A program made the position numbers and the translations under genes. This document shows positions 8,779 through 18,939 of a stretch of 64,000 bases of DNA, piece after piece. Source of the DNA: an uncultured Thermoleophilia bacterium (GTDB taxonomy: Bacteria; Actinomycetota; Thermoleophilia; UBA2241); NCBI GenBank assembly GCA_963741075.1, contig CAVUGS010000012.1, forward strand, positions 26,351-90,350, given 5' to 3'. Position 1 is the first letter of the stretch, and the number at the start of each line of letters is the position of its first letter. The notes beneath the pieces are model-generated. The model was not told where the DNA came from, made no database searches, and saw nothing but the letters and a program-made list of their open reading frames with translations.

Positions 8779-10631
8779 CTACTTGACGACCTCGAACGGC
8801 CGCATCATGTCGTTCTCCTCGTGCTCGAGGATGTGGCAGTGATAGACCCAGTTGCCGTAGCTCCTGGTCTTCCAGTCGTAGTCCAGCAGCGACGTCACGG
8901 GCAGCGTGAACTTGGCCCGCGTCCTCGTCACCATGCCCGGGATAGGCCTTCACGGTGTCCTTGTAGCCCATCTCCTCTGGGGCCGGCGGGATCGGAGTCG
9001 CCGACCAGGTAGTCGCTGAGTCTGGGCTTGAGCAGCGGGTCCCGCCCGAGCCGTGTCGGACGCGAGGTAGGCTTCCCAAGCCGCCGTGTAGCCGTCGACG
9101 TCGATCGCCTGCCGGTTCACGACCTGGGATGCCACCAGGTGCGGGTGCATCGGGTGGGCGTCCACGGTCAGGTTGATCCAGCGCCAGGTCTCGGTGGTAC
9201 CGGCCTTGATGAAGTCGGTCGTCGGGTCCATGAAGTGGTAGCCGTTGAGCAGCACCTCGTCGGGACCTCTGCTCCGTACCGCGTCCGTGCGTTCTCCTTG
9301 GCGACGATGTCCCGCGGCGCGCACGCCCGGCGTCGCCGACCAGCCGCGGCACGGCCGGCAGCTTCAGCTTGGCGGGCGGCACGCTGCGTGTCGGGGTCGT
9401 TCGCCGGCACCGGCGTGTTGATGTTGATCTTCATGAGGTCGGCGACCTGCGGGGCGTCGCCGTCCGGATACGGCTCGTTGGCGTCGTTGTGTCATCATGA
9501 CTCGTGCTGCCGAGCGGCAGGCCGGTGAAGTCGACGATGACGTCGAAGCGCTCGCCGGGGGCGATCAGCAGCTGGGTCTTCTCACCGGCTTGGGCAGCAG
9601 GCCCTGCTCGGAGCCGATGACCCAGAACGGGAGGTCGCGCCGGCGCCCGTGTCGAAGCTCAGGTCGTAGAAGCGGGCCTGCGAGCCGTTCAGGAGGCGCA
9701 GCCGGTAGCGCCGCGGCTGCGCGTCCAGGTACGGATAGGCCTTGCCGTTGACGACCGGGGTGTCGCCGAAGAACTCGGGCACCCAGACCGGGTGGACGGG
9801 CGCTGATGCCCATCGGTCGGGTAGAACAGCGTGCCGTCGTCGTTGAACTGCTTGTCCTGGAGCACCAGCGGCAGGTGGTACTTGCCGTAGCCGGACGGGA
9901 CCTTCTGGCCGTTGATCGTCGTGCCGTTGTCGACCTTGTCGAAGATCAGGTAGGCGGCGGCCAGGCCGAGGTACGGCTTGAACCGCGTGGCCCCCATGGT
10001 GTGGTCGTGGTACCAGAGCAGCGACGCCGGCTGGTCGTTCACGTAGGTGAAGGTGTCGGTGACGTAGTCCTCGCCCTTCTGGCCGTCGGCCGTCCACCAC
10101 TGCATCGGGCGTGCCGTCGAAGCGCGCCGCGGTGTGCCCGCCGTGGAGGTGCGGGATCGCCGCGCCGGTCGGCACATCGACCCGGCGCTCCGGGGATCGT
10201 CGGGTCGATCGAGTCCTTGAGCGGGAAGGCGCTCGGGTCGGTCGGCAGGTTGTTGATGTACTTGACCACCACCGGCCTGCCCGATCTGCGCGACGATCGT
10301 CGGGCCGAGCAGGACGGGCGTCTTGCCCGGGCTGCCCGTACGTCCAGACGGTCGCCGGGCCCAGGCACTGAGTTGAACTGGTGCTGGCTGGCCGTCATGT
10401 TGATCTCGTAGTAGTCGGCCCAGCTGAGTAGGCCGGGTTGAAGGTCTTCTGCGCCACCGGCGGCACCGGCAGCGGGTCGACCCATTTGTCCATCGGCGGA
10501 CTGGCCTGTGCGGCTGCCGCGATGGCCAGGAGGCCGGCGGCCAGCAGGGCGACCGCAAGGACCACGAGGCCGGCGCGCTTCTTCCACCGCGTATCTGACC
10601 GGTGTGGACTCGTCGTGGAGTAGGTAGTCAT
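8779..10631 (-). CDS. Secreted CotA/bilirubin-oxidase-like multicopper oxidase (many frameshifts)
   Basis: All four Cu motifs are present: [28 protein letters not shown]. Sec-type signal peptide ending AAAQA. Confidence 0.9.
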
Positions 10632-10697
10632 CGTGCTCCCCTTGTCGTCTCTGGCAAGCTGAACTGGCGCGGTGGCGCCGGACTCATCTCCGCCCGC

Positions 10698-11151
10698 TCA
10701 CGCGAGCGGCGGGATGACGGCTCTGGTTGCCGGAGGTGGAGCCCGGGGTGAGTTGCCGCGGTCCGCTCGGGAGGCAGGCTCGGCGACGATCTGGAGCAGC
10801 AGCCGGGTCCCCAAGGTCGGATGCGGCCGGACCAGCCCAGACGTGGGCAGCTCGAGACCGACGACCCCGCGCGCCAACCTCCGCTCGGAGGGCGGCGGGG
10901 GCGCGTCGCGCCGCTCGATCCCGTGCTGGCCCGCGTCAGTCGTGTAGAGATCGCGGCGCGTTTCCGGCATACTTCCAGCCCGCGGCCGTTTCGGGCGGGC
11001 GGGCTGCCGTCGGCGTGGGCCGGGATGCGGCCAGTGCCGCCACGACGACGAGGAGGACGACCGCGAGCCGCCGGCCCCAGACGGGACCTGGCTGATCGAC
11101 TGAGGCCCGGTGCGGCCGTCGCCGACCTCGTTGTGTTGCGCGCCCAGCCAC
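10698..11151 (-). CDS. Putative leader/arrest peptide ORF with hydrophobic N-region and C-terminal RAPP motif (frameshifted)
   Basis: RRLAVVLLVVVAALA hydrophobic segment in ORF 10936..11151. ...NSPRAPPPATRAVIPPLA* in ORF 10698..10970, ending 66 nt upstream of the oxidase start. Confidence 0.45.
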
Positions 11152-11367
11152 TAGACGGTGATCCCCTTCCCACCTGCCGGATCCGTGCGGAAGCGCACGG
11201 CGCCTGACCGTCCCTCATGGTGCTGGGCGGGTGACGGGGTCGAACAGCGCCTTTGCGCCAGATTTCACCTAGACGAATGTCAGACTGGCGTCCGCGTCCG
11301 TGCGTGACGAACGGCCGTTGCCAGACTGGACGACGATTAGGGTCTGTCCGGGGTGCGCCTGTCTGCC

Positions 11368-11606
11368 TCAAGCGGCCTTCTGCCCGGTCTCCTGCGGCTG
11401 GTGGGCGGCGACGTATCGCCCATCTCGTCGGACTGCTTCTTGAAGTCCTCGAGCGGACCTGCAGGCCGTGTAGGTACGTGCTGTACTTGGCGGTGTCCGC
11501 CGCCATGGGGCGGCACTCCTCCAATTGCTCGTCGGGTCGTGTCCATGAAGTCGGTGGCGCTCTGCCCGAGAGTCTGGATGCGTGTTCGCGTCTCTGACCG
11601 GCTCAT
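11368..11606 (-). CDS. Small helical hypothetical protein (~80 aa, frameshifted)
   Basis: Rebuilt across frames: MSRSETRTRIQTLGQSATDFMDTTRR..LEECRPMAADTAKYSTYLHGLQGPLEDFKKQSDEMG..AAHQPQETGQKAA. Confidence 0.35.
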
Positions 11607-11783
11607 TACGAACCTCCGCATGCCGGTTTGGGGGGCTGGGAATCGTGCACTGGTGCAACTCTCGAGCCGTTCCCGCGGCGGCGTGATGACTGTTCTGACG
11701 CTTCCGCGCCGCGCAGGGCGTTTGGGGCGGGGAAATACCCGTGGGAGGCTTTCAGCGTTCACGAGTGATTCCGGGAGGTGGCG

Positions 11784-12971
11784 ATGGCACGAGTACAGAT
11801 GTATTCGATGGAATGGTGCCCGTACTGCGCCAAGGCCAAGGCGCTTCTCGGCGCCAAGGGGATCGAGTACGACGAGGTCGACGTCACGGACGACGAGCCG
11901 GCCGCGCTCGAGATGGTGCAGCGCACGGGCCAGCGTGGCGTGCCGCAGTTCTTCATCGACGACCAGTGGATCGGCGGCTACGACAGCCTCGCGTACCTGA
12001 ACGCGACGGGGAGCCTCGACAAGCTGTTCGGCATCGAGTCGACGGTGGACCTCACGAAGGTGTGGGACGTGGCGGTGGTGGGCGGCGGACCGGCCGGCCT
12101 GTCGGCCGCCATGTACGCCGCCCGCAAGAACCTCTCGACGATCCTCATCGCGCTGGACCTGGGCGGGCAGGTCGGCATCACGCACCTGGTGACCAACTAC
12201 CCCGGTCTGGCGGTGGTCGAGGGACCCGAGCTGGTCCGGCTGATGTTCGAGCAGGCTTACATGTACGGGCTCGAGCGCCTCATCGGCGAGCGCGTGGACA
12301 ACCTGCGCGTCGACGGCCGGGCCAAGGTGCTGGAGCTGGCCTCCGGCAAGGAGGTCAAGGCTCGGTCGGTGATCCTCGCCAGCGGCGCGGAGAAGCGCCG
12401 GCTCGAGATCCCCGGCGAGGACAAGTACGCCGGCCGCGGCGTGGTGTACTGCTCCACCTGTGACGGTCCGTTCTACCGCGGCAAGACCATCGCCATCGTC
12501 GGCGGCGGCAGCTCGGCGCTCGAGGCGGCCGTCGAGATGAGCGGCATCGCGAAGAGGGTGCACGTGGTCAGCCGCGGCCCGTGGAGCGGCGAGGAGTGGC
12601 TCAGGGACAAGGCCGGATCGGCCCCCGGCGTCAGGCCGCTCGTCGGCTACGAGCCGGTGGAGATCCTGGGCGACGAGGTGGTCGACAGGCTCGTCATCCG
12701 CGACATCGAGACGCGCAAGCAGCGCACCCTCCTGGTGGACGGCGTGTTCATCGAGGTCGGCCTGTCGCCCAACTCCGCGCTCGTGCTGGACCTCGCCCGC
12801 ACCAACCAGCGGGGCGAGGTGATCGTCGACGAGTGGGGCGACACCGGGATACGCGGCGTCTTCGCCGCCGGCGACGTCACCGCCAACAAGGACAAGCAGA
12901 TCGTCATCGCCGCCGGGGAGGGCGCAAAGGCTGCGCTGGCGGCGTTCGACTACCTGATCTCGCAGCGCTGA
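11784..12971 (+). CDS. Glutaredoxin-thioredoxin reductase fusion
   Basis: N-terminal Grx (WCPYC, VPQFFI) fused to TrxB-like reductase (GGGPAGLSAA, CSTCDG, FAAGD). SD GGAGG. Confidence 0.9.
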   Translation: MARVQMYSMEWCPYCAKAKALLGAKGIEYDEVDVTDDEPAALEMVQRTGQRGVPQFFIDDQWIGGYDSLAYLNATGSLDKLFGIESTVDLTKVWDVAVVGGGPAGLSAAMYAARKNLSTILIALDLGGQVGITHLVTNYPGLAVVEGPELVRLMFEQAYMYGLERLIGERVDNLRVDGRAKVLELASGKEVKARSVILASGAEKRRLEIPGEDKYAGRGVVYCSTCDGPFYRGKTIAIVGGGSSALEAAVEMSGIAKRVHVVSRGPWSGEEWLRDKAGSAPGVRPLVGYEPVEILGDEVVDRLVIRDIETRKQRTLLVDGVFIEVGLSPNSALVLDLARTNQRGEVIVDEWGDTGIRGVFAAGDVTANKDKQIVIAAGEGAKAALAAFDYLISQR

Positions 12972-15200: not shown

Positions 15201-15935
15201 ATGCCTGCCGAATCCCCCAGCCCCCACCTCCCCAGGGGGGCCGGCGGCCCGCTCCGGCGGGCCGCCGGCCGGGTCTGCCCGCCCGCGCCCGAACCGTCGG
15301 CCGAGCCCGCCGTGCCTGCGGCGCTCGTCCTCGATCCCGATCCGCTGACGCGGCTCCTGGTCGTCTCGGCCGCGTCGGCACTTGGGTTGCGGGTGCCGGC
15401 AGAGCCCGGCCGCGCGGGGCGGGACGGGCGGTCCGCGGCCGCCGTCGTCTTCGTGCCGCTCGCGTCCGCAGCCGACTGCCGCGCGAGCGTGCGCCGCCGC
15501 CCGCGCCTGCGCCGGCCCGGAGGCGCTCGTGGCCGGCTACGCCGCCGCGCCGGCGGCGGTGCTCGCGGCGCACCGCGCCCACCGCTGCGCCGATCTGGTC
15601 CTGCTGCTCACGGCCGGCGCCGGGGGCCGTGCTTCGCCCACCTGCCGGCGCAGGACGAGGTCACCGCCGCCGGCCTCACGGAGCGCGAGGCGGACGTGCT
15701 CGTGCTGTTGCTCGGCGGGCTGACGACTCCGGCCATCGCCCGGCGGCTCTGCGTCTCCCCGAGCACCGCCCGCACGCACTGCCGGGCGGTGCTGCGCAAG
15801 CTGGGGGCCGGCGACCGGCGGGCGCTGCGTGCCCGGCTCCTCGCCGGCCGCCGCCCCGAGGTTTGCCCAGGCGGCCGCGCCAACTTTGCCGAGGAATGGG
15901 CCGTGGCGGCGCCCCGCCACGCGCCCCATACTTGA
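15201..15935 (+). CDS. LuxR-type HTH regulator with receiver-like N-terminus (frameshifted)
   Basis: GLTEREADVLVLLLGGLTTPAIARRLCVSPSTARTHCRAVLRKLG. Confidence 0.7.
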   Translation: MPAESPSPHLPRGAGGPLRRAAGRVCPPAPEPSAEPAVPAALVLDPDPLTRLLVVSAASALGLRVPAEPGRAGRDGRSAAAVVFVPLASAADCRASVRRRPRLRRPGGARGRLRRRAGGGARGAPRPPLRRSGPAAHGRRRGPCFAHLPAQDEVTAAGLTEREADVLVLLLGGLTTPAIARRLCVSPSTARTHCRAVLRKLGAGDRRALRARLLAGRRPEVCPGGRANFAEEWAVAAPRHAPHT

Positions 15936-16008
15936 GTGCAGGTTGCGGAACCGCCGTCTCCGGACGGTCCGCGACCGTTCGCGAGCACCGGCAGCGCGGG
16001 GGGAGCGC

Positions 16009-17507
16009 ATGAGCAACGAAGCGGCCGACGGGCACGCCCGCACGCAGTCTCAAGCGGGCGCAGGTCCGCGTCATCACCGTCTTCTTCATGATCTACATCC
16101 TCGTGTCGGGCGGCTCGTTCGGCATCGAGGACATGGTGTCGTGGTCGGGACCGGGGCTCACGCTCCTGCTCCTGATCCTGCTGCCCGATCTTCTGGAGCC
16201 TGCCCATGGCGCTCATCGCCAGCGAGCTCGGCTCGGCGATCCCGGGCGAGGGCGGCTTCTACGTCTGGGCGCGCCGCGGCCCTGGGCGACTTCTGGGGCT
16301 TCCAGACGGCCTGGTGGTGGTCGCTCTCCATCTTCGTCGACTCGTCCGTGTACATCGTGCTCGCCGTCGGCTACCTGCAGAACTGGCTGCGACTTCAGCC
16401 AGCTGTGGTTCTACGTCATCTGCTGGGCGATCATCGCGGTGTTCGCGCTCATGAACATCATCGGCGTCAAGGTCATCGCGCTCAGCTCCACGCTGTTCTC
16501 GATGCATCATCCTGGCGCCGTTCTTCGTGCTCATCGTCGTCGGGCTGGCCAAGTGGAACTTCGACCCGCTCACGCCGGTCACGCGTGCCCGGCCGAGCCG
16601 TTCTTCGGCACCGGCGGGGTGTTCGCCCTGGGCCTGGCCATCGGCGTCTGGATGTACTCGGGCTACGAGTCGATGTCCACGCTGTCGGGCGAGATCCGCA
16701 ACCCGCAGAGGGTCATCCCCCGGGCGCTGATGCTGGCGGTGCCGTTCATCATCGTCATGTACGTGCTGCCCACGGTGGCGAGCCTCGCGGGCTACGGGCA
16801 CTGGGACACGCTTGGCGCCGTGGACGCCGGCGACGGCTACGTCTCGTTCGTCGAGATCGGCAAGGCGCTGGGCGGCTCGGCGCTCGGCGTGGCGCTGCTC
16901 GGTGTCGGCGCTGCTCGGCAACCTCGCGCTGTACCTGGACTACCTGGCGTCGGGGGCCCGGCCGCTCTTCGCGATCGCGGCGGACGGGCTGTTCCCCAGG
17001 TCCATCGCGCGCGTCAGCGGGCGCTTCGGCACGCCCGATCGCCGCCATCCTGCTGATGGCCGCGCTCAACGCGGTGCTCATCGTCGGGCCGTTCCAGAAC
17101 CTGGTCGTCATCGACGTGATCCTGTTCATCTCGGCCTACGTGCTCATCTTCATCTCGGCCGTGCGCCTGCGCGTCACCGAGCCGGACCTCAAGCGCCCGT
17201 TCCGCGTGCCGCTCGGGACCAAGGGGATGATCGCCATGGTGATCCCGCCCATCCTCATCGTCGTCGTTCACCATCTACGTCAACGCGATCGACCGCAGCA
17301 CCGAGCTCTTCGGCACGACCGGGCTTCAAGCTGCTCGGCCAGGACGTGGGCTGGTACGGCATCGCCGGGTTCGCGGCGCTGCTCTCGGGCCCGGTGCTGT
17401 ACTACCTCTTCCGGGCCATCTATGGTGGGCCGAGCACGCCGTCGCGCGGGGCCGGCGACGCGGCGATCGCCATCGCCGAGGCCGAGGCAGCGGAGGACGC
17501 GGCCTGA
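16009..17507 (+). CDS. APC family amino acid/polyamine permease (many frameshifts)
   Basis: GGSFGIED, ELGSAIPGEGGFYVW, WMYSGYES, GEIRNPQRVIPRA, RPFRVP. Confidence 0.88.
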
Positions 17508-18939
17508 TGCGAGACGCAGCATCCAGGTCCTCTCCGAGGACGAGAAGGCGCAGGTCCACGAGCGCACGCTCAAGGTGCTGAGCACCGTCGGCATGCGCTG
17601 CGACACGGCCGAGGGGCGCCGGATCCTCGCGGATGCCGGCGCCCACGTCGACGAGGCGACGCGCAGGGTCCGCTTTCCCGCCGAGCTGGTCGAGAGCCTG
17701 CTGGCGCAGGCGCGCACCGCTTCACCGTCCACGGCCGCCGGCCGGACTGGAGCTTCCCCGTCGGCGCCGGCGACTTCACGCTGCTGGCCGACGGCGGCGC
17801 CACTCGGTGTTCGACGCGCGGTCCGGCGAGCGCCGCCCCACCACCTTCGACGACTGGCGCGCCGCCACGCGGCTCCTCGACGCCTCGACGACGTCGGCTT
17901 CTACTGGTGTCCCATCGACTACTCCGCCGACTACGAGCGGCCCGGCGGCTTCGTGCGCTACTACACCGACGTCTTCGGCACCTTCGGCAAGCACGTGCAG
18001 GACTCGTTCGGCACGCCGGAGCTGGCGCCGTGGCTCAAGGAGGTGCTCGACATCGTGTTCGGCGGGCCGCAGGCGGTACGCGAGCGGCATGCCCATGTCG
18101 TTCCTCATCACGCCGGCCTCGCCGCTGACCATCGAGCACGACTACACGCAGACGTGGCTGGAACTGCGCGACTACGGTCTGCCGGTGGCGGTCATGCCGA
18201 TGCCGCTGCAGGGCGCGACGGCGCCCGGCAGCCGGCTCGGCACGCTGCTCGCCGCCAACTGCGAGACGATCGGCACGCTGTGCCTGGTCCAGGCGGCGGC
18301 CCGGGCACGCCGGTGTTCTACGCGCCGGTGGTGGCGACCATGGACCCGCGCACGGGGCTGTACGCCGCCGGCGCGATCGAGCACGCGGTGCTCTGCGTCG
18401 CCGGCACCGAGATGGCCCGCTACTACGGCCTGCCGGCCGAGTCCTCGGGCCTCTGCACGCAGACCTACGAGCCGGACCTGCAGACCGCCTGGGAGAAGGC
18501 CGACGGCGGGCTGCTCGTCGCGCTCGCCGGCCCGGACGTCCTCGTCGGTCCGGGCCTGCTCGGGGGCGCCACCATCCTGTGCCTCGAGCAGATCGTCCTC
18601 GACGTCGAGATGATCCGGCGCGCCCGCCGGGCGCGCGCCGGCATCCCGGTGCGCGACGACCTCTGGCTCGACGAGATCCTGGACAAGGTCGGGCCCTGCG
18701 GCTCGTTTCTCGGCGAGCGGTCCACGCGCATTGGCGTCCGCGCCGGCGAGTGGCGCCTCAGCGACTTCGGCGTGCAGGGCAGCTGGGACGCGTGGCGGGC
18801 GGCGGGGTCGCCGGGCACCGTCGCCGCCGCCCGCGAGCGCGTCGAGCAGATCCTCGCCGCGCAGGTCTCGCTGCCGTACAGCGAGGACCAGGCGGCGGCC
18901 CTCGCGGCGCTGCAGCGCCGCGCCGACGCCGCCTCCTGA
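17507..18939 (+). CDS. MttB-superfamily methyltransferase, non-pyrrolysine type (frameshifted)
   Basis: IQVLSEDEKAQVHERTLKVL, SPLTIEHD, MPMPLQGATAPGSRLGTLLAANCE, DLQTAWEK, LEQIVLD. Cys (TGC 18454-56) at the Pyl-equivalent site. TGATG-coupled to the permease. Confidence 0.88.

What the first reader, a model, noticed from the sequence alone, without database searches (positions are those of the whole stretch)
10631..11151. RAPP arrest-peptide-like uORF whose codons can sequester the multicopper oxidase SD
Seen: the upstream ORF has a signal-like hydrophobic segment and ends RAPPPATRAVIPPLA*. Its Ala-Pro-Pro codons (mRNA GCUCCACCU, 10734-42) pair 8/8 with one bulge to the oxidase SD region AGGGGAGC (10635-42). 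A ~14-bp hairpin (10684-10717) covers the uORF stop. Established: RAPP-like motifs stall ribosomes (ApdA/ApdP), and Pro-motif leader ORFs control copper genes post-transcriptionally (CruR in Bordetella; CutF before multicopper oxidase CutO in Rhodobacter). Inference: stalling on RAPP frees the SD. No Cys pair is visible, so the signal could be secretion rather than Cu. The uORF needs frameshift correction.
Basis: partly seen in the sequence, partly recalled or inferred. Interest (0 to 1): 0.62.

Follow-up and report, generated by a model that had tools for sequence, protein, structure and literature searches.

The report
RAPP stalling leader before copper oxidase
A small exported leader peptide that ends in the ribosome-stalling motif Arg-Ala-Pro-Pro sits about 65 bases upstream of a multicopper oxidase gene in a few uncultured soil actinobacteria; it is a new, cysteine-free sequence family of a switch type that was catalogued in 2025, so it is real but not a new kind.

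Summary
On the minus strand, a 148-codon ORF (11151-10698) has a signal peptide. It ends in RAPP plus 11 residues and lies 66 nt before a multicopper oxidase (MCO) start. One extra base near 10950-10959 breaks it, probably consensus noise in an indel-ridden long-read MAG.

Nine further homologs exist, all uncultured Thermoleophilia or soil metagenome. All are intact, and the eight with DNA lie 62-66 nt before the same MCO. R(A/G)PP is invariant (8 RAPP, 2 RGPP) while its codons vary synonymously. In-frame pN/pS is 0.71, against about 1.1 off-frame. A QHGIE motif lies exactly 60 residues before the Arg. The stop-codon hairpin is conserved.

Across homologs only a 3-bp C:G core is fixed, there is no covariation, and predicted SD opening on stalling is modest.

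Fujiwara et al. 2025 (PMC12992588) already list 118 RAPP leaders before MCO-family genes and show that RAPP/RGPP peptides from Streptomyces arrest translation. This is therefore a new member of a known kind, and it is not DUF2946 or DUF6153.

The scan has found RAPP leaders of other families on other DNA. Stalling and regulation are untested.

The parts
10698..11151 (-). Leader ORF (uORF), 148 codons if the one extra base is discounted; GTG start 11151, TGA stop 10700-10698
   Evidence: Start codons align in 9 loci. Intact ORF in 9 of 10 homologs. In-frame pN/pS is 0.71 against 1.14 and 1.06 in the other frames.
11162..11170 (-). Shine-Dalgarno of the leader ORF (GGAAGGGGA, 10 nt before the GTG)
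   Evidence: A GGGGAG-type motif lies at the same place in all 9 loci.
11002..11073 (-). Signal peptide: Arg-rich n-region, hydrophobic core LAVVLLVVVAALAA, PxxA-T-A-A|RP cleavage-type site
   Evidence: AF2 gives one confident helix at residues 19-41 and nothing folded after it. No signal-peptide predictor was available.
10950..10959 (-). Site of the single +1 frame break (one extra base in GCGCCGCGAT)
   Evidence: P0005 (about 85% identical over the N-terminal part) reads straight through here.
10914..10928 (-). Codons of the QHGIE motif (Q-H-G-I invariant, E in 7 of 9), always 60 residues before the Arg of R(A/G)PP
   Evidence: There is no indel between this motif and RxPP in 9 sequences. 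Local pN/pS is 0.47-0.57.
10734..10745 (-). R-A-P-P codons (predicted stall site: first Pro in the P site, second Pro in the A site); also the proposed anti-SD
   Evidence: R(A/G)PP is invariant in 10 homologs with synonymous changes in the R, P and P codons. Stall geometry is taken from PMC12992588 and PMC7897499.
10684..10717 (-). Hairpin H1; its 5' arm is the last sense codons (PPLA) and the stop codon sits at the loop/3'-arm boundary
   Evidence: -21.8 kcal/mol, z = -3.85; 94% of cells paired in 9 loci, with G-U substitutions only.
10664..10681 (-). Hairpin H2 (CCGGCGC-CACC-GCGCCAG)
   Evidence: (95% of cells paired).
10651..10660 (-). AGCTTGCCAG, invariant in all 9 loci; function unknown
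   Evidence: RNAalifold pairs it with the GGCGGC codons five codons before the Arg, with no covariation.
10635..10642 (-). Shine-Dalgarno region of the MCO (AGGGGAGC), 6 nt from GGGG to the ATG
8779..10631 (-). Three-domain multicopper oxidase gene (CotA/CueO/PhsA-like). Here it is split by about 22 indels, mostly single G or C insertions.
   Evidence: The intact 625-aa ortholog in L024 hits PF07732, PF00394 and PF07731.
11253..11277 (-). Conserved dyad-like element TTCGTCTAGGTGAAATCTGGCGCAA about 100 nt before the leader start; candidate promoter or operator
11183..11200 (-). Conserved small hairpin CCGTGCG-CTTC-CGCACGG in the 5' leader

Best explanation
The ORF at 11151-10698 (minus strand) encodes a Sec-exported, otherwise unstructured leader peptide of the RAPP/RGPP arrest-peptide class.

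Proposed mechanism:
1. While the peptide is being exported, the ribosome pauses with ...R-A-P in the P site and Pro-tRNA in the A site, 11 codons before the stop.
2. In the free mRNA, the oxidase SD (GGGG) is paired with C-rich codons in the last 15 codons of the leader. These are the Pro-Pro codons in this genome and most relatives.
3. A ribosome held there keeps the SD free, so the multicopper oxidase 66 nt downstream is translated.
4. How long the pause lasts is probably set from outside the cell. Either pulling by the translocon or something bound by the exported QHGIE segment would do it. That segment sits a fixed 60 residues from the stall site, about where the chain leaves the translocon.

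Shown here: the gene is real and under selection; the motif, its spacing, the hairpin and the gene order are conserved.
Inferred: stalling itself, SD control, and the signal.
For: Family and context:
- Ten homologs, nine of them intact. All nine loci with DNA lie 62-66 nt upstream of the same MCO.
- R(A/G)PP is invariant (8 RAPP, 2 RGPP) and lies 10-11 residues before the stop.
- Third positions of the S, R, P and P codons vary freely.

Coding signal:
- pN/pS is 0.71 in frame, against 1.14 and 1.06 off frame.
- The strongest constraint is at QHGIE..ERRxARGV and at the C-terminus.

Peptide features:
- Start codons align, each with an SD.
- N-terminal helix only, the rest disordered.
- No indel between QHGIE and RxPP.

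RNA:
- With 90 nt of context, the SD G's pair with codons inside the stalled-ribosome footprint at p = 0.5-1.0 in 5 of 6 loci.
- The MCO starts with TTG in 5 of 9 loci.

Literature:
- RAPP and RGPP are the most robust arrest cores.
- They are enriched near the C-terminus of small secreted proteins.
- 118 RAPP against 41 AAPP leaders lie upstream of 'multicopper oxidase family protein' genes (11.3-fold).
- Seven Streptomyces lividans RAPP/RGPP peptides arrest in vitro and in vivo (PMC12992588).
- CutF-cutO gives the precedent of a stalling leader that unmasks an MCO ribosome-binding site.
Against:
- The anti-SD helix has no covariation and only a 3-bp invariant core. Pro codons (CCN CCN) will pair with a GGGG-type SD in any case.
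- With 240 nt of context, or when folding only the mRNA downstream of the stalled ribosome, predicted SD opening is small and uneven: none in J24, J25 and J21.
- In several loci an ACCUC just 5' of H1 is an alternative partner that a ribosome stalled at RAPP would not cover.
- Sakiyama et al. found no SD-sequestering hairpins for the actinobacterial ApcA and ApdA (PMC7897499).
- RAPP alone is not sufficient for stable arrest in ApdA and ApdP (same paper).
- There is no Cys, Met or His cluster to bind copper.
- In this genome the leader, the MCO and the neighbouring CMD gene are all broken.
- MCO orthologs in G009, G014 and G015 have no such leader.
Confidence: 0.55

Rival explanations
1. Same arrest peptide, opposite logic. 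The SD is opened mainly by ribosomes that reach the leader's stop codon and melt H1 and the adjacent ACCUC. Stalling at RAPP then throttles oxidase translation, and release of the stall by successful export turns it on. The exported oxidase would be made only when secretion works.
For: Predicted mean P(unpaired SD) is highest with a ribosome at the stop codon: 0.43, against 0.25 stalled and 0.12 free. H1 holds the stop at its loop edge in G000 and has 94% of cells paired across 9/9 loci. The ACCUC-type alternative anti-SD lies next to H1.
Against: The 62-66 nt spacer is long for coupling. Every characterised case (SecM, MifM, CutF, CruR) switches on through stalling. The fold differences are small and model-dependent.
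Confidence: 0.15
2. The ORF encodes a small secreted accessory or chaperone protein of the oxidase. RAPP is tolerated or incidental, and the two genes are merely co-transcribed.
For: The QHGIE..ERRxARGV island is conserved. CutF is also needed for CutO maturation (PMC8456105, title and abstract).
Against: AF2 finds no folded domain. The best-conserved part is the extreme C-terminus. The RAPP/RGPP interchange matches the two strongest arrest cores, and the motif is strongly avoided in proteomes. The linker keeps its length but not its sequence.
Confidence: 0.1
3. In this particular genome the locus is dead. The leader frameshift, about 22 indels in the oxidase and the deleted CMD gene are real decay, so nothing is regulated here even though the family is functional elsewhere.
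For: Indels are dense in the MCO. The CMD gene lacks about 170 nt and changes frame. G017 shows 0 breaks in the leader against about 15 in its MCO.
Against: Unrelated genes in the window (APC permease, MttB at 16-18 kb) are split in the same way. The indels are mostly single G or C insertions. MCO substitutions still favour third codon positions (0.15, 0.14, 0.26). Completeness is 67% with only 29 contigs. Another agent reached the same view for mtbB.
Confidence: 0.15
4. The region is not protein-coding, and its conservation reflects RNA structure or promoter elements of the oxidase.
For: H1, H2 and AGCTTGCCAG are conserved at the nucleotide level.
Against: The frame stays open over 133-149 codons in 9 of 10 homologs. 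Start codons and SDs align. There is a frame-specific excess of synonymous change, and synonymous variation inside the invariant SSR(A/G)PP.
Confidence: 0.03

Closest known systems
RAPP/RGPP-containing arrest peptides upstream of non-Sec genes (Fujiwara et al., EMBO J 2025, PMC12992588), including the listed group 'uORF upstream of multicopper oxidase family protein'
   Same: Small (148 aa) signal-bearing protein. RAPP or RGPP lies about 10 residues from the C-terminus. A co-directional copper-related gene follows immediately. The host is in Actinomycetota. The distance from motif to stop matches the Streptomyces DUF6153-type examples (RAPP plus 11 residues).
   Different: The sequence family is different: no Pfam or NCBIfam hit, only 5 clusters among 1.84 billion representatives, and all members come from uncultured Thermoleophilia or soil metagenomes. 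No Cys/His cluster is present. It was very probably outside that survey, whose listed genome ids are all RefSeq (GCF_) assemblies, which exclude MAGs. No peptide in front of an MCO was tested in that paper.
CutF-cutO of Rhodobacter capsulatus (DUF2946; PMC9973294; bioRxiv 10.1101/2025.02.05.636593)
   Same: An exported leader directly upstream of a multicopper oxidase. A C-terminal proline motif stalls the ribosome. An mRNA structure hides the oxidase ribosome-binding site. The signal peptide is required.
   Different: CutF is a DUF2946 protein with a CxxxC copper site and a PPP motif that EF-P relieves. Here there is no Cys, the motif is R(A/G)PP (reported refractory to EF-P), the host is Gram-positive, and the SD partner lies 90 nt away across two hairpins rather than in a local stem-loop.
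CruR of Bordetella pertussis (PMC9426467; arrest shown in PMC12992588)
   Same: C-terminal RAPP is essential for control of the downstream gene. The peptide is exported. The physiology is copper-linked.
   Different: CruR is DUF2946 with Cys. Its target is a TonB-dependent receptor, and the host is a proteobacterium.
ApdA (Amycolatopsis, Streptomyces) and ApdP, Sec-monitoring RAPP arrest peptides (PMC7897499, PMC10951233)
   Same: Actinobacterial. Cleavable signal peptide. 128-140 aa. RAPP near the C-terminus. Only the C-terminus is conserved among homologs.
   Different: Their downstream gene is secDF2, not an oxidase. No sequence similarity apart from RAPP.
DUF6153 family (actinobacterial RAPP/RGPP leaders upstream of DUF305 and MCO genes)
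   Same: Same architecture, and sometimes the same kind of downstream gene.
   Different: No Pfam match. The DUF6153 tail is RAPPDLSxLxxLRI, and the family carries Cys/His/Met-rich sensor regions.

Membership tests
RAPP/RGPP-class arrest peptides (criteria of PMC7897499 and PMC12992588) | Small ORF (80-200 aa; under 300 aa) | tested here: met
   148 codons; homologs have 133-149.
RAPP/RGPP-class arrest peptides (criteria of PMC7897499 and PMC12992588) | RAPP or RGPP close to the C-terminus and conserved among homologs | tested here: met
   Invariant in 10 of 10 (8 RAPP, 2 RGPP), 10-11 residues before the stop, with synonymous codon changes.
RAPP/RGPP-class arrest peptides (criteria of PMC7897499 and PMC12992588) | N-terminal signal or transmembrane segment | tested here: met
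   Arg-rich n-region, 14-residue hydrophobic core and an A-T-A|R site. AF2 helix at residues 19-41. No dedicated signal-peptide predictor was run.
RAPP/RGPP-class arrest peptides (criteria of PMC7897499 and PMC12992588) | Co-directional target gene immediately downstream | tested here: met
   The MCO start lies 62-66 nt after the stop in 9 of 9 loci.
RAPP/RGPP-class arrest peptides (criteria of PMC7897499 and PMC12992588) | Ribosome actually arrests at RAP|P, dependent on the Arg | not testable with these tools
   Needs in vitro translation or toeprinting.
Sec/YidC monitoring substrates (SecM, MifM, VemP, ApdA, ApdP, ApcA) | Downstream gene encodes a Sec or YidC component | tested here: not met
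   The downstream gene is a three-domain multicopper oxidase.
DUF2946 copper-sensing leaders (CutF, CruR) | Match to the DUF2946 profile | tested here: not met
   No Pfam family at E up to 10 for three members; no NCBIfam hit.
DUF2946 copper-sensing leaders (CutF, CruR) | Exported Cys motif (CxxxC) that binds copper | tested here: not met
   No conserved Cys in the alignment, and G000 has none.
DUF2946 copper-sensing leaders (CutF, CruR) | mRNA structure shielding the downstream ribosome-binding site, opened by the stalled ribosome | tested here: inconclusive
   The SD is predicted paired (P unpaired 0.00-0.24) and often pairs with the stall-site codons. There is no covariation, and opening on stall is modest.
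DUF6153 | Match to the DUF6153 profile and a RAPPDLSxLxxLRI-type tail | tested here: not met
   No Pfam hit. The tail here is RAPPxxxGVxxPLA, against the examples.

The most novel reading that the evidence does not exclude
The leader is a cysteine-free 'ruler' sensor. The exported QHGIE segment is held exactly 60 residues from the stall site by a linker that keeps its length but not its sequence. It binds Cu(II) or another extracytoplasmic ligand, or an oxidase substrate or product, just as it leaves the translocon. That binding sets how long the RAPP arrest lasts. The Pro-Pro codons double as the anti-SD of the oxidase. If so, this would be a transmembrane stalling sensor whose ligand chemistry differs from the Cys-based CutF and CruR.
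Probability: 0.2. Interest if true: 0.6.

Novelty: new member of a known kind. Interest (0 to 1): 0.38.

Why it matters
Arrest peptides that sense conditions outside the cell and gate translation of a neighbouring gene are a recently recognised, fast-growing class. Nearly all metal-linked examples studied so far use cysteine motifs and come from proteobacteria.

This family offers a compact Gram-positive example in front of a copper oxidase. It has no cysteines. It has a strictly fixed distance between a conserved exported motif and the stall site. It also has a testable link between the stall-site codons and the oxidase ribosome-binding site, a link that could not be found for ApdA and ApcA.

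It is useful as a test case for how such leaders read their signal. It does not change the picture of the class.

Tried and rejected
- Rfam at a permissive threshold over 10300-12000 gave only two chance-level hits.
- The consensus promoter/terminator scan found nothing.
- Pfam and NCBIfam gave no family for the leader.
- The word-indexed 5.8-billion protein search found only 2 proteins. The full HMM search found 5 clusters. The genome and metagenome scans added 3 loci. A first scan failed because the alignment rows were too gappy.
- The G066 hit (L016) was rejected as antisense noise in a permease gene.
- The contig of P0005, the closest intact relative, is not on record.
- The sliding-ribosome fold scan with 240 nt of context was too noisy to single out the stall position.
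- A genome-wide hunt for other R[AG]PP leaders in G000 returned mostly off-frame or frameshifted junk.
- My first dN/dS run joined the G000 pieces out of frame; it was discarded and redone.
- The G017 part of a codon-position script failed, so only the G000 figures are used.
- A Tat signal was considered and rejected, because the twin Arg is present in only about half of the homologs.
- An intrinsic terminator at H1/H2 was considered, but no U-tract follows.
Full report
**What is there**

The window is contig C12 of a 3.3-Mb, 29-contig, 67%-complete MAG. A same-genus genome carrying the same locus is recorded as an uncultured Thermoleophilia MAG.

On the minus strand the order of features is as follows:
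- a divergent glutaredoxin-thioredoxin-reductase fusion on the plus strand, 11778-12971, intact;
- a remnant of a CMD/AhpD-family gene, 11606-11368, which changes frame three times and lacks about 170 nt; it is intact in G017 and G009;
- a conserved non-coding leader;
- the ORF of interest, 11151-10698;
- a 66-nt spacer;
- a three-domain multicopper oxidase (MCO) starting at 10631.

**Check of the observation**

- Hairpin 10717-10684 folds at -21.8 kcal/mol (z = -3.85), with the stop codon straddling the loop/3'-arm boundary (loop GCGU).
- The GCUCC-A-CC: GGGGAGC helix appears in the minimum-energy fold of the 120-nt segment.
- The frame break is one extra base within GCGCCGCGAT (10959-10950). 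The closest relative, P0005, is about 85% identical over the N-terminal part and reads straight through this point.

**Is the frame break real?**

Three indirect observations point to consensus noise.
- The MCO carries about 22 indels relative to an intact ortholog. Most are single G or C insertions outside homopolymers.
- MCO substitutions still favour third codon positions.
- Unrelated genes at 16-18 kb, an APC permease and an MttB-like gene, are split in the same way.

An earlier agent judged a break in mtbB of this genome to be a consensus error too. True decay of this locus cannot be excluded. I give it about 15%.

**Is it a gene?**

Yes. Homologs were found in:
- two same-genus MAGs (G017, G062);
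- five JGI metagenome contigs and one Logan contig;
- one further protein cluster without DNA (P0005).

An exhaustive HMM search of 1.84 billion representatives found only five clusters, so the family is very small.

Nine of the ten copies are intact, with 133-149 codons. Start codons align, and each has a GGGGAG-type SD 8-12 nt upstream.

Pooled pN/pS is 0.71 in frame, against 1.14 and 1.06 in the other two frames. Third positions vary most.

Constraint is concentrated in two islands:
- D-x-G-Q-H-G-I-E...E-R-R-x-A-R-G-V (pN/pS 0.47-0.57);
- the C-terminus P-x-S-R-x-x-G-G-N-S-S-R-(A/G)-P-P...P-L-A* (pN/pS 0.45-0.52).

AF2 on the family alignment gives one confident helix, residues 19-41, which is the signal core. 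Nothing after it is folded.

**The motif**

R(A/G)PP is invariant, with eight RAPP and two RGPP copies, and always lies 10-11 residues before the stop. Its codons vary: CGG/CGT/CGA, GCT/GCG/GCC/GCA/GGC/GGT, CCA/CCC/CCT and CCT/CCA/CCC. Selection therefore acts on the peptide, not on a fixed RNA sequence.

RAPP and RGPP are the two cores that Fujiwara et al. found to give the most robust arrest, and this arrest was refractory to EF-P.

There is no indel between QHGIE and RxPP in nine sequences, although the linker between them evolves almost neutrally (pN/pS 0.9-1.0). This fixed 60-residue spacing is my own observation. Reading it as a 'ruler' for a co-translational sensor is inference.

**mRNA features**

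Two GC hairpins follow the motif in all nine loci.
- H1: its 5' arm is the PLA codons and its loop or loop edge holds the stop codon. 94% of cells are paired.
- H2: 95% of cells are paired.

An invariant AGCTTGCCAG comes next, followed by AAGGGGA and an ATG or TTG start.

It has three invariant C-G pairs and no covariation beyond shuffles. Pro-Pro codons will pair with a GGGG-type SD regardless of selection.

The fold predictions differ with context:

| Context folded | Result |
|---|---|
| 90 nt of upstream context | SD G's pair with codons under a RAPP-stalled ribosome at p = 0.5-1.0 in five of six loci |
| 240 nt of upstream context | Result is noisy; no clear stall-specific opening |
| Free mRNA from 30 nt before the Arg codon | Mean P(SD unpaired) 0.12 |
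| Only the mRNA downstream of the stalled ribosome | Mean P(SD unpaired) 0.25 |
| Ribosome at the stop codon | Mean P(SD unpaired) 0.43 |

SD masking is therefore plausible, but neither its mechanism nor its sign is settled. The opposite-logic coupling model is kept as a rival.

**Comparison with what is known**

Fujiwara et al. 2025 (PMC12992588) surveyed 52,895 genomes. Their findings were:
- RAPP/RGPP is depleted in proteomes but enriched near the C-terminus of small secreted or membrane proteins.
- These proteins lie upstream of diverse genes, including copper-related ones, and Actinomycetota are among the hosts.
- Their source data list 118 RAPP against 41 AAPP leaders upstream of 'multicopper oxidase family protein' genes (11.3-fold, p = 3.6e-48). 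Of the 118, 108 have signal peptides.
- Seven Streptomyces lividans peptides and CruR were shown to arrest.

CutF-cutO is the worked example of a stalling leader in front of an MCO.

The present family fits the class criteria of size, signal, conserved C-terminal R(A/G)PP and adjacent co-directional gene. It is not DUF2946 or DUF6153, has no Cys motif, and is not a Sec monitoring substrate. I file it as a new member of a known kind.

This scan has already reported RAPP-type leaders of other families on other DNA. None has this sequence.

**Distribution**

In the genus, about nine genomes carry the orthologous MCO. Only G000, G017 and G062 have the leader. G009, G014 and G015 have a short AT-rich upstream region instead. 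The leader is thus a lineage-specific addition.

**Verdict**

- The leader belongs to the arrest-peptide class: about 0.7.
- It controls oxidase translation through SD masking that stalling relieves: about 0.45-0.5.
- The signal, whether export force or an extracytoplasmic ligand such as copper, is open.

Noticed in passing
window 11253-11277 (minus strand); also L002, L014, L019, L021-L025: A conserved element, CTTTCGTCTAGGTGAAATCTGGCACAAGTGCACTGG, lies about 100-130 nt upstream of the leader start in all 9 loci. It has dyad symmetry (TTTC-nn-CTAG-nn-GAAA). J21 has TTTG..CAAG, a change on both half-sites. It may be an operator or promoter for an unknown regulator.
   Followed up: partly
window 10651-10660 (minus strand): AGCTTGCCAG is invariant in 9 of 9 loci, between hairpin H2 and the MCO SD. 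RNAalifold pairs it with the GGCGGC (Gly-Gly) codons upstream of the Arg. It is also partly complementary to TCTGGCGCAAG in the upstream conserved element. Function unknown.
   Followed up: partly
window 11183-11200 (minus strand): A small conserved hairpin, CCGTGCG-CTTC-CGCACGG, lies just before the leader's SD in most loci.
   Followed up: no
window 11368-11606 (minus strand): Remnant of a CMD/AhpD-family gene with a CxxC motif (HCPYCTYFH in relatives). About 170 nt are missing and the frame changes three times here. The gene is intact in G017 and G009, frameshifted in G062, and absent from L019, L021 and L022.
   Followed up: partly
window 8779-10631 (minus strand); L013 (G017), L003 (G009): The MCO is split by many single-base insertions in three MAGs of the genus (about 22 indels in G000, about 15 frame changes in G017). 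Neighbouring genes such as the Grx-TrxR fusion are intact, as is the G017 leader. This uneven error density is unexplained.
   Followed up: partly
window 15800-18900: An APC-family permease and an MttB-like methyltransferase are each spread over several frames. This fits frequent indel errors in this assembly.
   Followed up: partly
L009 (G014), L005 (G015), L003 (G009): MCO orthologs without the leader start MKKR/MKVRK. G014 and G015 also carry an AT-rich inverted-repeat-like sequence (CGTTAACGTTGAYTAA) upstream, which may be a different, transcriptional control.
   Followed up: no
L025:804-806: One homolog ends its leader with TAG instead of TGA. Earlier notes report pyrrolysine (TAG) decoding in this genome's lineage. 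No consequence was examined.
   Followed up: no
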